NCBI GenBank assembly: GCA_951406725.2
Contig: OX597833.1
Location: forward strand, 55,180,001-55,244,000
DNA from: Octopus vulgaris
Taxonomy: Eukaryota
Length of the DNA stretch: 64,000 bases
Direction of reading: 5' to 3'
Shown: piece by piece, positions 755-47,960 of the stretch
Layout of the letters: each line of letters opens with the position of its first letter
Numbering within the stretch: position 1 is the stretch's first letter
Position numbers and translations under genes: made by a program
Notes under the pieces: generated by a model
The model's database searches: none
What the model was told of the DNA's origin: nothing
What the model saw: the letters and a program-made list of their open reading frames with translations, nothing else

Positions 755-1120
755 CGCTTTTGGATTTGGTTTGCAAGATTCTTTATATGAGTTTGTGTGT
801 TGAAGCAATTTTGTTGTGTCTGGGGAGAGTCATTTTCTTTTTGTGCCTTATAATTTAATACACTCACCGGTGAAATTTCCATTTATTTCTTATTTATATT
901 TTCCTAAAATTTTCGTTGCATCTTGCAACCTTTTCAATAGTCAAAACTATTGAAAAGATTGCAAGACACAATGAAAATTTTTGGAAATTAAAAATAAGAA
1001 ATAAGTGGAAATTTAACCGGTGAGTGTGTTAAATTATAAGGCACAAAAATAGTCAAGACTACTGAAAAGGGTTACAAGATGCAACAAAAATTTTAGGAAA
1101 ATAAAAATAAGAAATAAGTG
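755..1120 (-). mobile_element. Penelope-like pseudo-LTR remnant with an inverted copy and a partial tandem copy (family HH-1)
   Basis: 838-942 is the imperfect reverse complement of 945-1049, followed by a further partial copy at 1050-1120. Each copy contains a hammerhead-like motif. Inverted plus tandem pLTR arrangements are typical of Penelope-like elements. Confidence 0.7.
904..940 (-). ncRNA. Minimal type-I hammerhead ribozyme fold, U3:A8 core variant
   Basis: Minus strand reads CUA-UUGAAAA-G-GUUGC-AAGAU-GCAAC-GAAA-AU-UU-UAG: stem I CUA/UAG, core U3UGAAA8A9, 5-bp stem II, GAAA, self-complementary AAUU stem III. Degenerate + strand copies at about 947-983 and 1059-1096. Confidence 0.7.
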
Positions 1121-1439
1121 TTCGTCTATTTGTTTATTAATTAATGATTTACATTAAATAAATAACGTGAGAAATCAGTAACCAAGAATCAATATCTTGT
1201 AAATGCATGTGGGAACACGTGTAATCAATTTCATGTATTCACTCAACCATGGTAGGTGATGGTGACCTGACAATAAGTAACAGAAACTACATTCACAATG
1301 AACACTGATGATTGTTAAATATCACGAGAATTATTAGCATGTCTGACAAACTGCTTCATAGCCTTTCTTTTGGCTCTTGATATCCTCGGTTCAAATCACA
1401 CCAAAGTCAGCTTTGCCTTTCATTTTTTTTTTTTCAGTG

Positions 1440-1842
1440 TCGAGTGGCTGTGTGGTAAGTAGCTTGCTTACCAACCACATGGTTCAGTCCCACTGCATGG
1501 CATCTTGGGCAAGTGTCTTCTGCTATAGCCCCGGGCCGACCAATGCCTTGTGAGTGAATTTGGTAGACGGAATCTGAAAGAAGCCTGTCGTATATATGTA
1601 TATATATATATATATGTATGTGTGTGTCTGTGTTTGTCCCCCTAGCATTGCTTGACAACCGATGCTGGTGTGTTTATGTCCCCGTTACCTAGCGGTTCGG
1701 CAAAAGAGACCGATGGAATAAGTCCTGGGCTTACAAAGAATAAGTCCCGGGGTCGAGTTGCTCGATTAAAGGCGGTGCTCCAGCATGGCCACAGTCAAAT
1801 GACTGAAACAAGTAAAAGAGTAAAAGAGTAAAAAAAGAGAGT
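1440..1842 (+). mobile_element. tRNA-derived SINE, family A (about 400 bp, internal TA/TG microsatellite, GTAAAAGA tail)
   Basis: A-box-like TGGCTGTGTGG, B-box-like GGTTCAGTCCC; body shared with about 20 copies in the window; ends GACTGAAACAAGTAAAAGAGTAAAAGAG. Confidence 0.9.
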
Positions 1843-1924
1843 ACAATAAAGTGCTAACCAATCACTGAGATCAATATTATTGACAGACCCCACCATTCTC
1901 AAAATTTCAGACCTTGTGCCTATA

Positions 1925-2107
1925 TATTTCTTTATTGCCCACGAGGGGGCTAAACACAGAGGGGACAAACAAGGACAGACAAAGAGATCAAGTCGATTAC
2001 ATCGACCCCAGTGCGAAACTGGTACTTTATTTAATCGACCCCAAAAGGATGACAGGCAAAGTCAACCTCGGCGGAATTTGAACTCAGAACGTAACGACAG
2101 ACGAGAA
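1925..2107 (-). mobile_element. SINE family B, single body unit
   Basis: Reverse complement of the GTTCTGAGTTCAAATTCCGCCGAGGTCGACTTTGCCTTTCATCC...AAAGAAATA repeat seen many times in the window. Confidence 0.85.
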
Positions 2108-2227
2108 ACGATTATATCATACAAGAAAATTTCAGCCAAATTCATGCAACATGCAGTTATGCTATTATGGTAGTTACTCTTCACTAACAGCATTTCAAGA
2201 TTTCTAGTTTCTTACTTGGAGAGGTTT

Positions 2228-2648
2228 ATGTCCTTGTTTGTCCTCTCTGTGTTTGGCCCCTTGTGGGCAGTAAAGAAATAGGTATTTCGTCTGCCCCTAC
2301 ATTCTGAGTTCAAATTCCACCGAGGTCAACTTTGCTTTCATCCTTTCAGAGGTTGATTAAATAAGTACCAGTTACTCACTGAGGTCGATATTATCAACTT
2401 AATCCGTTTGTCTGTCCTTGTTTGTCCCCTCTATGTGTAGCCCCTTGTGGGTACTAAAGAAATAGGTATTTCGTATGCCTCTATGTTCTGAGTTCTAAGT
2501 CCACCAAGGTCAACTTTGCTTTCATCCTTTCTGAGGTCAATTAAATAAGTACCAGTTACGCACTGGGGTCGATATAATCGACATAATCTGTTTGTCTGTC
2601 CTTGTTTGTCCCCTCTATGTGTTGCCCCTTGTGGGCAGTAAAAGAATT
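2228..2648 (+). mobile_element. SINE family B, head-to-tail multimer (about 2.3 units)
   Basis: About 180-bp units joined at AAAGAAATA|GGTATTTCG. Confidence 0.85.
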
Positions 2649-44706: not shown

Positions 44707-45220
44707 TATAAACATGTACATGAAATTAAGCACACACACACATGCACGCACACACACTGTCTCTAGCGTGTATACACACAAGGTGCATATACAAAAGCTT
44801 AAAGAAATCATAAGCTGCTTCATCAAGAATCTACTCACATATATGGGTATGAGAATGGGTGTGTGGTTAAAAAGTGCAGTTCGTAATCTCTTCATTCCAG
44901 GTTCAATCTCACTGTGGGCAACTATTTTTGTCCTTAATCTAACCTCTAGTTGACCAACTCTTTGTAAGTAGACTTTGGTTGGCAGAAACTGTGCAAAACT
45001 CGCATGTGTGTGTAAAAATCAGTAAAGTATTTGAGCATTGATGGAAAAAACTGAAAAAAAAGGAATATTGCTTATATCCAGCCCAAATATTCTACTCATT
45101 TTATGCTCAAACTGGCCAGAGCCAGTATCTCACACCTACCCTGCAATGTCATTCTAAAAATAAACAATTACATCTTTCAAATCTTGAAGCTACAAGATAA
45201 TACCAGATTAATTTTTTAAA

Positions 45221-45757
45221 ATCATCATCATTATCATCATCTTTCGGGGTCTGGTAAGCCATGGAGGCTGCACCAGGCTCTAGTCTGATTTGGCAGTGTT
45301 TCTACTGTTGGATGCCCTTCCTAACGCCAACCGCTCCGTGAGTGTAGTGGGTGATTTTTATGTGCCACCGGCACAGGAGCCAGAGCAGGCTGGCAAATGG
45401 CCACGATCCGATGGTGCTTTTACGTGTCACCGACACGGACGCCAGTCAGGCAACGCTAGTATCTGCCACATTTGAACAGTGCTTTTTACGTGTCACGGGC
45501 ACAGGAGCCAGAGCAGGCTGGCAAATGGCCACGATCGGATGGTGCTTTTACGTGTCACCGACACGGACGCCAGTCAGGCGACGCTAGTATCTGCCACATT
45601 TGAACAGTGCTTTTTACGTGTCACCGGCACAGGAGCCACAGCAGGCTGGCAAATGGCCATGATCAGTTGGTGCTTTACGTGTCACCGACACGGACGCCAG
45701 TCAAGCGACGCTAGTATCTGCCACATTCGAACAGTGCTTTTTACGTGTCACCCGGCA
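45221..45757 (-). mobile_element. Family C with 3 x about 127-bp internal repeats, nested in a P2 MITE (about 45070-45813)
   Basis: GGCACAGGAGCCAGAGCAGGCTGGCAAATGGCCACGATC repeated three times; MITE end AAAGGG-TTAA at 45808-45817. Confidence 0.85.
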
Positions 45758-46549
45758 CTTGTGTTTTAAGAATAAAGATTACTTTTGGCATATTTAGTTT
45801 GAACGCCAAAGGGTTAAACAAAAGCAGTGTATTTCCTCAGAAATATGGTAACAAAAGGGTTAAGACCAATGTCCCTTCAGAACCACAATGTTACAGACAC
45901 TCCTTTGTTATCCTTGCCATCAGAAACTCAAGAGAATCAGTGATTGGCTTGTTAGAGATCCATAACCAGTGGTGTTTTAATTCATCAGCTGCAATATAAA
46001 ATAAATATATTTCAACGTTAATAATTCAGGACATTGTCACCTTCTTCTTCAAATTAATCATACGCATGTTTGTGTTAATGAGTTTCCTTCATAAGAAATG
46101 TATAGTTGGAAGTCTCTGAAGTTAATTACCGTTTTTGTTTTCAGTGTATTGAATAATTGACCCCTGATTTTAGACAGACCAATCTAGTTAGTTTGAAAAT
46201 TTATCACCACCACCACCACCACCATCATCATCATCATCATCATCATCATCATCATTTAGCATCTGTATTCTATGCTGGTATAGGTCAGACAGTTGGATAA
46301 GACCTAAGAGGCCAGAAGATTGTGTCATGCTCCAGTGTCTGCCTTAGCATGGCTTTTCTTTTGTTCGATGCCTCTGCTAATGCCAACCACTTTACAGAGG
46401 GTAGTGGTTGCTATTCTCTGACAAGGGCACTAGTGAAGTCACCCAGTAGCTTGCAAGACAAGACCCCTTGATTGACATGGGTGTGGTCTTGAAAGAGGAG
46501 GCTTGTGAGAGGCAAGGATATGAGGAAAATGCATTCTTTTTTTCTTTTT

Positions 46550-46944
46550 TCTTTTACTTGTTTCAGTCATTTGACTGTGGCCATGCTGGAGCACCACCTT
46601 TTTAGTCGAGCAAATCGACCTCAGGACTTATTCTTTGTAAGCCTAGTACTTATTCTATCGGTGTCTTTTGCCGAACCTCTAAGTTACGGGGACGTAAACA
46701 CACCAGCATCGGTTGTCAAGCGATGTTGGGGGGACAAACACAGACACACATATATATATATATATATATACATATATACGACAGGCTTCTTTCAGTTTCT
46801 GTCTACCAAATCCACTCACAAGGCTTTGGTCGGCCTGAGGCTATAGTAGAAGACACTTGCCCAAGGTGCCATGCAGTGGGACTGAACCCGGAACCATGTG
46901 GTTCATAAGCAAGCTACTTACCACACAGCCACTCCTACGCCTAC
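46550..46944 (-). mobile_element. SINE family A, full length
   Basis: Reverse-complement match to family A. Confidence 0.92.
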
Positions 46945-47019
46945 ATGGTTCCTCCAGCTGGAAATATCACAAAGAAGATTGTGGAGATGAGATGTTAGGA
47001 TATATATCTTATTTTGTCC

Positions 47020-47960
47020 CTTTTACATGTTTCAGTTATTAAACTGTGGCCATGCTGGGGAATTGCCTTGAAGAATGTTTAGTCGAATGAATCAACCTCA
47101 GAACTTTTATTTTAAGACTGGTTCTTATTCTACCATCCTCTTTTGCTGAACTGCTAAGTTACAGGGATGTAAACACATTAACGCTGCTTGTCAAGAGATG
47201 GTGGAGAACAAATACAGTCATATATATATATATACATATATATATATGATTCACCATGATAGATCACTAGCCACTAAACCTTTATTATTTTCTCTCCCTG
47301 TTTATTTCTGTGTTCCTTTCTGTCAAAGAGCATACGCTCAAAACGTAAAAGACTCTCACTTTCTGAGTGTTAAACTAATACATATGTTTGTTGTTTACAT
47401 ATCCATCTTCATCTTTTTTTTTCTGTAAATTCTTACCATCATATATATATATATATATATATATATATATATATATATGTATATATGATGGTCTTCTTTC
47501 AGTTTCCGTCTACCAAATCCACTCACAACGCTTTGGTCGGCCCGAAGCTATAGTAGAAGACACTTGCTCAAGGTGCTAAGCAGTGGGCCTGAGCCTAGAA
47601 CCATGTGGTTAGGAAACAAATTTCTTACCATGCAGTCACACCTGTCTCTTTTGCTGAACCACTAAGTTACGGGGATGTAAACACACCAGCATCAATTGTC
47701 AAGCGATGTTGGGGGGACAAACACAGACACACACATACATACATACATACATACATACATACATACATACATACATACATACATACATATATATATATGT
47801 ATGACAGGTTTCTTTCAGTGTCCGTCTACCAAATCCACTCACAAGGCTTTGGTCGGCCCAAGGCTATAGCAGAAGACACTTGCCCAAGATGCCACGCAGA
47901 GGGACTGAACCCGGAAATTTGTGGTTGGTAAGCAAGCTACTTACCACACAGCCACTCCTA
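47020..47960 (-). mobile_element. Two adjacent SINE A copies, the first interrupted by an HH-4 element
   Basis: Copies at about 47020-47644 and 47645-47960. Confidence 0.85.
47250..47440 (+). mobile_element. Family HH-4 pLTR-like element inside the SINE A microsatellite
   Basis: Motif at 47316-47351: CUUU-CUGUCAA-A-GAGC-AUAC-GCUC-AAAA-CG-UA-AAAG (two core G>A changes, both consistent with CpG decay). Confidence 0.65.

What the first reader, a model, noticed from the sequence alone, without database searches (positions are those of the whole stretch)
755..47440. Four unrelated short element families each carry a hammerhead ribozyme fold with a different non-canonical core
Seen: nine motifs in four families share the order stem I / 7-nt core / stem II / GAAA (AAAA in two decayed copies) / short, usually self-complementary stem III / UH / stem I', but none has the canonical CUGANGA. 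The cores are UUGAAAA (904-940), GUGAACA (14487, 26883), CCGACGA (30767) and CUGUUGA (8932). Known: minimal type-I hammerheads occur in the pseudo-LTRs of Penelope-like elements, cleave as dimers through a palindromic stem III, and positions 3 and 8 form a tertiary Watson-Crick pair. Inference: this genome hosts a dense, diversified population of non-autonomous ribozyme-bearing retroelements that a CUGANGA search would miss. Positions 3 and 8 stay complementary in the best copy of all four families (U:A, G:C, C:G, C:G), which argues for selection on catalysis. Variant PLE hammerheads have been reported in general; whether these families are described I cannot determine.
Basis: partly seen in the sequence, partly recalled or inferred. 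Interest (0 to 1): 0.9.

Follow-up and report, generated by a model that had tools for sequence, protein, structure and literature searches.

The report
Penelope-element hammerheads with swapped cores
The four short repeats are the ribozyme-bearing ends of Penelope-like jumping genes (three traced to their parent genes, the fourth a gene-less relative of one of them), and their altered but still-paired cores suggest RNA scissors that likely still cut, a known kind of element with a few core changes not found in the papers searched.

Summary
All nine motifs are at the stated places; five keep the full pattern (shuffles: 0.47±0.56) and four are decayed. Each family has about 900-4000 first-look matches genome-wide, a fixed 3' end and, in three families, an inverted 5' partner lacking a 54-78 nt tail: the Penelope-like (PLE) insertion signature. 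F1 (UUGAAAA) and F4 sit downstream of Neptune-type GIY-YIG ORFs, F3 (CCGACGA) downstream of a Hydra-clade RT-endonuclease ORF. Corrections: the families are not all unrelated (F1 and F2 are homologous, with compensated U3:A8/G3:C8 and stem II swaps); F4's majority core is CUGUGGA; only F2 looks non-autonomous (0 of 91 copies extend upstream); canonical cores also occur in this genome. Minimal PLE hammerheads with U3:A8, even the core UUGAAAA, are in print (PMC4209133), and this scan noted one on other DNA (e1-7786987). Natural G3:C8, fixed U6 and fixed C4 in PLE hammerheads were not found in the papers I could read; a key one (Lünse 2017) was not held. Cleavage is untested. Verdict: new variant of a known kind, moderate interest.

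The parts
758..942 (-). F1 main copy with tail; hammerhead motif 940-904, core UUGAAAA 937-931, extra G, 5-bp stem II, AAUU stem III, predicted cut after 907, 3-bp stem I
939..1049 (+). F1 inverted 5' partner, truncated; decayed motif, core at 950-956
1051..1120 (+). third F1 arm; decayed motif, core CUGAAAA 1062-1068 (3:8 unpaired), AAAA box
8926..9039 (+). F4 old copy (79% to reference); core CUGUUGA 8932-8938, stem III palindrome lost, predicted cut after 8959
14363..14474 (-). F2 inverted 5' partner lacking the core and the tail
14473..14670 (+). F2 copy; core GUGAACA 14487-14493 (G3:C8), extra G, 5-bp stem II, AAUAUU stem III, 7-bp stem I, predicted cut after 14523
26874..27066 (+). second F2 copy; core GUGAACA 26883-26889
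30548..30723 (-). F4 near full-length short copy; decayed core CUAAGGA 30656-30650 (G5A)
30756..30915 (+). F3 copy between (TA)n tracts; core CCGACGA 30767-30773 (C4), 3-bp stem II, quasi-palindromic stem III, bulged stem I, predicted cut after 30796
47248..47433 (+). F4 copy; decayed core CUGUCAA 47320-47326, AAAA box

Best explanation
The nine motifs lie in short 3'-end (pseudo-LTR) copies of Penelope-like retrotransposons, and each family's motif is a minimal type-I hammerhead that likely still self-cleaves slowly, predicted to do so as a protein-assisted dimer. Shown: F1 and F4 end Neptune-type elements, F3 ends a Hydra-clade element, F2 is a gene-less relative of F1; copies have two fixed 3' ends and 5' ends clustered upstream of the core. 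Inferred: an internal pLTR promoter makes the RNA; the element's RT-endonuclease nicks AT-rich or (TA)n DNA and starts reverse transcription at two internal sites (tail versus inverted partner); it copies mostly uncut RNA back to the 5' end, which would give the many ~200-nt copies with the whole ribozyme; F2 would be moved in trans by a Neptune-type protein. The 3:8 pair has been kept through C:G, U:A and G:C, which points to selection on the catalytic fold in the source elements; most genomic copies then decay neutrally.
For: ORF linkage on the same strand: F1 9 of 30 loci, ORF end 629-677 nt before the core in 5, Pfam GIY-YIG E=2e-4; F3 13 of 30 loci, 1.17-1.23 kb in 8; F4 4 loci. Clade motifs match PMC8557442. 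A Hydra element in that paper's supplement has a canonical CUGAUGA hammerhead in the same register as F3, with the same stem I and a near-identical stem III. Inverted partners in 22/30 F1, 13/30 F2, 14/30 F3, ending at +126, +123, +71 against +182, +177, +149 for main copies. 3:8 paired in 98/110 F1, 86/100 F2, 65/66 F3, 42/45 F4 copies. F1/F2 compensations at 3:8 and in stem II, with a U-G intermediate. Outside the four families 7 of 12 descriptor clusters are 3:8 paired, where shuffles give 6.0 hits per replicate, 9 of 30 paired. Stems I and II of F1 and F2 have pair probabilities mostly >=0.9. In a lizard PLE, C3G/G8C partly rescues cleavage, the ribozyme needs protein and uncut RNA is the template (PMC11167929).
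Against: No cleavage evidence. F3's stem II has pair probability about 0.12 as a monomer and F1's stem I is 3 bp. The modelled hammerhead dimers lie 6-13 kcal/mol above the dimer minimum and above two monomers (F3 was modelled without its outer stem I). U4C and position-6 changes lower activity in other hammerheads (PMC3088659). F4 has 0 of 30 inverted partners. No ORF found for F2. The RT of the F1 parent was seen only as short decayed pieces. The linked F1, F3 and F4 ORFs seen are all broken. The promoter is inferred from another element (PMC2377424).
Confidence: 0.72

Rival explanations
1. The motifs are hammerhead-derived but no longer cut; the fold is kept for another job (protein binding, promoter or packaging signal), or the 3:8 swaps were fixed long ago and some families (F4 with U6, F3 with C4) are now inactive.
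For: Cleavage is not needed for insertion in vitro and no read ends were seen at the cut site in a lizard PLE (PMC11167929). Most copies start upstream of the core. Weak F3 stem II. Low activity of minimal PLE hammerheads (PMC4209133).
Against: G5, A9, GAAA, UH and the 3:8 pair are kept across families that share little else; these are catalytic-core features, not generic hairpin features.
Confidence: 0.2
2. The short elements are retrozymes: cut and circularised monomers copied by rolling circle into tandem arrays.
For: Animal retrozymes are PLE-derived (10.64898/2026.07.22.740005). A few F2 copies are head-to-tail with a (TA)n spacer (L002, L014, L030).
Against: Most copies are single or inverted pairs with fixed ends outside the cut site, not permuted at it; stems lack the canonical 6-bp/4-bp layout.
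Confidence: 0.05
3. Chance motifs in fold-back DNA transposons (MITEs).
For: F1 and F2 look palindromic in the window; the descriptor was tuned after seeing the motifs.
Against: Arms are unequal and end at fixed internal sites; long copies run into RT/GIY-YIG ORFs; excess over shuffles on new DNA.
Confidence: 0.02

Closest known systems
Minimal type-I hammerheads of metazoan PLE pLTRs (Cervera & De la Pena 2014, PMC4209133)
   Same: Short stem I, extra base between 9 and 10.1, palindromic stem III, position in pLTR, mostly single copies; U3:A8 covariation, and the core UUGAAAA in a Schistosoma Cercyon element.
   Different: None of the 56 representative motifs in its Fig. S3 has G3:C8, C4 or U6 (its descriptor limited the cores); F3 has A10.1-U11.1 and no extra base.
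Hydra-clade PLEs, including Hydra-1_Obim (Craig et al. 2021, PMC8557442)
   Same: DKT, CxCX5C linker, CxxC/CxH around the endonuclease, (TA)n targets; F3's stems I and III match a canonical Hydra hammerhead in the supplement.
   Different: The listed Hydra-1_Obim hammerhead has a canonical core; F3 has C4 fixed (98% of 66 copies) and a 1.2-kb 3' UTR.
Neptune-clade PLEs
   Same: CX4CxxC linker before GIY-YIG in the F1 and F4 parents; DKG motif in the F4 parent.
   Different: Cores U3:A8 (F1) and U6 (F4); no phylogeny was built, so the clade call rests on motifs.
PAc Poseidon element of Anolis (PMC11167929)
   Same: Tail set by two fixed 3' ends; AT-rich targets; whole ribozyme in the inserted copies.
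   Different: There G3:C8 is an engineered partial-rescue mutant; here it is the natural state of a young family. Tails here are 54-78 nt against 30-40 nt.
Non-LTR retrozymes (PMC7229834 listing; 10.64898/2026.07.22.740005)
   Same: Non-coding, PLE-related, hammerhead-bearing.
   Different: Defined by tandem arrays; these are mainly dispersed single or inverted copies.

Membership tests
Minimal type-I hammerhead (PLE type) | Order stem I / core / stem II / GAAA / stem III / UH / stem I' | tested here: met
   5 window hits against 0.47±0.56 in shuffles; majority state in all four families
Minimal type-I hammerhead (PLE type) | Canonical core CUGANGA | tested here: not met
   Majority cores UUGAAAA, GUGAACA, CCGACGA, CUGUGGA; U3:A8 and U4C are accepted natural variants
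Minimal type-I hammerhead (PLE type) | Watson-Crick pair 3:8 | tested here: met
   98/110, 86/100, 65/66, 42/45 copies; compensated between F1 and F2
Minimal type-I hammerhead (PLE type) | Self-complementary stem III for dimer formation | tested here: met
   AAUU, AAUAUU, ACUCCGAGU (one central mismatch), ACGU; lost in the 8932 copy
Minimal type-I hammerhead (PLE type) | Hammerhead dimer is the favoured fold | tested here: inconclusive
   Modelled dimers are above the computed minimum; the model omits tertiary contacts and protein
Minimal type-I hammerhead (PLE type) | Site-specific self-cleavage after UH | not testable with these tools
   needs an assay; only contigs were available
Penelope-like element (EN+) | RT plus C-terminal GIY-YIG ORF upstream of the pLTR: F1, F3, F4 | tested here: met
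   RT motifs seen for F3 and F4, endonuclease only for F1
Penelope-like element (EN+) | RT plus GIY-YIG ORF upstream: F2 | tested here: not met
   no shared upstream sequence in 91 of 113 exact-pattern copies examined, apart from one local duplicate pair, 13 of 13 and 30 tail-selected copies
Penelope-like element (EN+) | Inverted 5' partner and optional 3' tail | tested here: met
   22/30 F1, 13/30 F2, 14/30 F3; not F4 (0/30)
Penelope-like element (EN+) | Direct tandem pLTR-ORF-pLTR copy of the same family | tested here: inconclusive
   not seen for F1, F3, F4 in the long loci examined; seen for the related family F5 (L169)
Hydra clade (F3 parent) | DKT, CxCX5C, CxxC and CxH motifs | tested here: met
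   L389, L390, L391 against PMC8557442 section 11
Neptune clade (F1, F4 parents) | Placement in an RT phylogeny | not tested
   only linker and GIY-YIG motifs were compared
Non-LTR retrozyme | Tandem arrays of hammerhead-bearing units | tested here: not met
   mostly single or inverted copies

The most novel reading that the evidence does not exclude
F2 is a recently active, gene-less ~200-nt PLE-derived SINE with its own start site whose hammerhead naturally carries G3:C8, so far found in my searches only as a laboratory rescue mutant, and it and the U6 and C4 lineages cut with help from the element's protein. Octopus-type PLEs would then show a ribozyme core drifting through weakened states under continuing selection although uncut RNA is what gets inserted, meaning cleavage serves another step, such as limiting or trimming the transcript.
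Probability: 0.35. Interest if true: 0.65.

Novelty: new variant of a known kind. Interest (0 to 1): 0.42.

Why it matters
Why PLEs keep hammerheads is an open question: cleavage is weak and was dispensable for insertion in vitro (PMC11167929). Sister families with compensated 3:8 swaps (U:A to G:C) are natural evidence that the catalytic fold is under selection, and they give ready wild-type/mutant pairs for assay. In practice, CUGANGA-based screens and Rfam miss these families, so hammerhead counts in such genomes are too low, and elements reported to lack hammerheads deserve a relaxed-core search.

Tried and rejected
First descriptor without the 9/10.1 insertion: 1 hit, no excess over shuffles. 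Linking F3 to the intact ORF next to it in L125: rejected; that ORF belongs to another family (F5) with its own pLTR, and only 1 of 12 further F5 stretches held an F3 copy. F4 copy at L121:9874 as inverted partner of the L121 ORF: not claimed, it is another subfamily separated by unrelated sequence. Cap-derived extra G at 5' ends: inconclusive, the G is mostly explained by the adjoining inverted copy and the F2 sets were selected on G. Excess of 5' ends at the cut site: 7/30 F1 and 5/30 F2 tail-selected copies start at +10 to +49, several near the cut (+31, +37), but the palindromic stem III also favours template switching and ends are approximate; inconclusive. RNA evidence: no RNA holder listed; contigs of 4 runs cannot show ends; they showed no letter change above 10% in the F2 core. 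Rfam: no hammerhead match. Pfam and PDB gave nothing useful for the Hydra-type ORFs. Protein search of the genome returned only F5 itself. Lünse et al. 2017 not held, so its variant list could not be checked. No covariance model, R-scape test or tree was built.
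Full report
Setting. The window lies in a 2.8-Gb genome of 227 contigs, dense in (TA)n and SINE-like repeats; an octopus-type genome is my inference from size and repeat content. 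The window holds no long coding ORF. I call the families F1 (758-1120), F2 (14363-14670, 26874-27066), F3 (30756-30915) and F4 (8926, 30723-30548, 47248).

Observation. All nine motifs are present. Five keep the whole pattern; four are decayed (950, 1062, 30656, 47320). A descriptor without an extra base between A9 and stem II found 1 hit against 2.1±1.3 in 20 shuffles. With that base allowed, and without asking for a 3:8 pair, it found 5 against 0.47±0.56 in 30 shuffles, all paired at 3:8. Because it was tuned on these motifs, I tested new DNA: 200 kb gave 4 hits, all from these families and all paired, against 1.0±0.9 in 20 shuffles. Over 1.67 Mb of fetched loci, biased toward the four families, there were 16 clusters; of the 12 outside F1-F4, 7 are paired (two more C4-type, three more U3:A8, two canonical) and 5 are not, while shuffles gave 6.0 hits per replicate with 9 of 30 paired. 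The unpaired ones are at chance level; the paired ones exceed it.

Families. First-look candidates, which are lower bounds: F1 4054 and 2148, F2 926 and 944, F3 1142, F4 3022. The 200-kb sample held 7 loci, the window 7 in 64 kb, so the window is denser than that sample. Among ungapped copies the majority cores are UUGAAAA (82/110), GUGAACA (78/100), CCGACGA (58/66) and CUGUGGA (24/45); U6 is in 93% of F4 copies and position 7 varies between its subfamilies. Top F2 and F3 copies are 96-99% identical to the window copies, so these families are young.

Relatedness. F1 and F2 align over 163 columns (score 41, null maximum 31 of 300; tails alone 6 of 300). In a 7-row alignment that includes a diverged F1-like copy, 3:8 reads U-A in 4 and G-C in 3, and one stem II pair reads U-A, U-G or C-G, with all cells paired. 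That is two or three events, not seven, so it is suggestive rather than statistical.

Insertion anatomy. Main copies end at +182 (F1), +177 (F2), +149 (F3) from core position 3; inverted 5' partners occur in 22/30, 13/30 and 14/30 loci and mostly end at +126, +123 and +71; F4 has none in 30. This is the inverted-copy-plus-tail structure described for PLEs (PMC8557442, passages), which PMC11167929 traces to two internal RT start sites (section 3 part 2). In sets chosen by the tail alone, 25/30 F2 copies start at -24 to -8 and 17/30 F1 copies at -15 to -3; 6 F1 copies are longer and 7 start downstream. In sets chosen with the motif, 21/30 F3 start at -17 to -11 and 25/30 F4 at -73 to -59. Most copies were therefore made from RNA that still held the whole ribozyme.

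Parents. Walking upstream from longer copies: F1 reaches a GIY-YIG ORF end with a CX4CxxC linker in 9 of 30 loci (Pfam E=2e-4, just under the curated cut-off). F3 reaches an RT-endonuclease ORF with DKT and CxCX5C in 13 of 30 loci, the Hydra-clade marks (PMC8557442 section 11); that paper's supplement lists an octopus Hydra element with a canonical core, and the record before it has a canonical hammerhead whose stems I and III match F3 in register (supplement searches). F4 follows a Neptune-type ORF at 4 loci, one with RT motifs. All these ORFs are broken. F2 has a hard 5' edge 24 nt before G3: no shared upstream sequence in 91 of 113 exact-pattern copies apart from one local duplicate pair, in 13 of 13 copies of another pattern or in 30 tail-selected copies. 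F2 is thus non-autonomous, or its parent is rare or lost.

Mechanism. Shown: sequence order, linkage, fixed ends, pairing. Inferred: transcription from an internal pLTR promoter, as in Drosophila Penelope (PMC2377424, passages); priming at AT-rich DNA; copying of uncut RNA from internal sites back to the start, giving the short copies; slow, protein-assisted dimer cleavage. Folding supports stems I and II in F1 and F2, less so in F4, and poorly for F3's stem II; the hammerhead dimers are not the computed minima. The need for help fits the low activity of minimal PLE hammerheads (PMC4209133) and protein dependence in PAc, but activity is not shown.

What is in print. PMC4209133 (main text parts 1-2 of 4, supplement parts 1-2 of 3) describes minimal PLE hammerheads, the extra base, palindromic stem III, U3:A8 and the core UUGAAAA; its 56 examples show no G3:C8, C4 or U6. 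PMC3088659 (passages, section 8) reports natural U3:A8, A6C and U4C outside PLEs; PMC7151607 (abstract) studies A6C. C3G/G8C appears as an engineered rescue (PMC11167929; PMC8495972, one passage). Searches for natural G3:C8 or U6 and for octopus PLE hammerheads found no description of these families; an octopus repeat annotation counts active Penelope families and does not mention ribozymes (PMC13282606, passages). Lünse et al. 2017 was not held; I saw only its title, and it may cover these variants. Also seen: 10.64898/2026.07.22.740005 (part 1 of 5), PMC6765202, PMC6962438, PMC8969392 (passages). Hammerhead numbering and the inactivating role of G5A are from recall.

Verdict. Real and correctly recognised as PLE hammerheads, but a known kind. 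New here: parents for three families, a natural G3:C8 sister of a U3:A8 family in a young gene-less element, and fixed U6 and C4 lineages. Interest 0.42.

Noticed in passing
L169:5273-7910 (G000:C4) and L125, L161-L172, L236-L265: Young Hydra-clade PLE family (F5), 516 first-look matches, top copies 98-99% identical, one 722-aa open frame right after a pLTR; by eye its hammerhead has canonical CUGAAGA, a U-U at the base of stem II and a longer stem III. Related to F3 (40% protein identity).
   Followed up: partly
L049:1369(-), L126:2342(+), L037:1999, L032:2950, L105:2999, L048:1847, L107:3102(-): Further hammerhead-like motifs in flanks, with C4/U4, U3:A8 and canonical cores; parents not traced.
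   Followed up: partly
L006:1351-1133(-): Diverged F1-like copy (74%) with core UUGACAA and a compensated stem I.
   Followed up: partly
window 30548-30915: An F4 and an F3 copy sit head to head on either side of one (TA)n tract, suggesting repeated use of the same microsatellite.
   Followed up: no
L002, L014, L030, L281 (G000:C28): Head-to-tail F2 copies with a (TA)n spacer, two of them beside C2H2 zinc-finger exons; such tandems would put two ribozymes in one transcript.
   Followed up: no
window 54267-54431 (+): Short remnant similar to Hydra-type ORFs (38% to F5, E 4e-6).
   Followed up: no
window 9872-10101, 10124-10352, 17510-17727, 27894-28122: About 230-nt repeat with terminal inverted repeats starting TTAACCC, like a piggyBac-type MITE (label from recall).
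   Followed up: no
window 35504-37038 and 7529-7851: Tandem repeats with units of about 170 nt and 161 nt; no hammerhead descriptor hit.
   Followed up: partly
window 1417-1810 and about 20 other places; 14845-15093, 27243-27477, 43752-44696, 54531-54855: Abundant SINE-like families unrelated to the finding.
   Followed up: no
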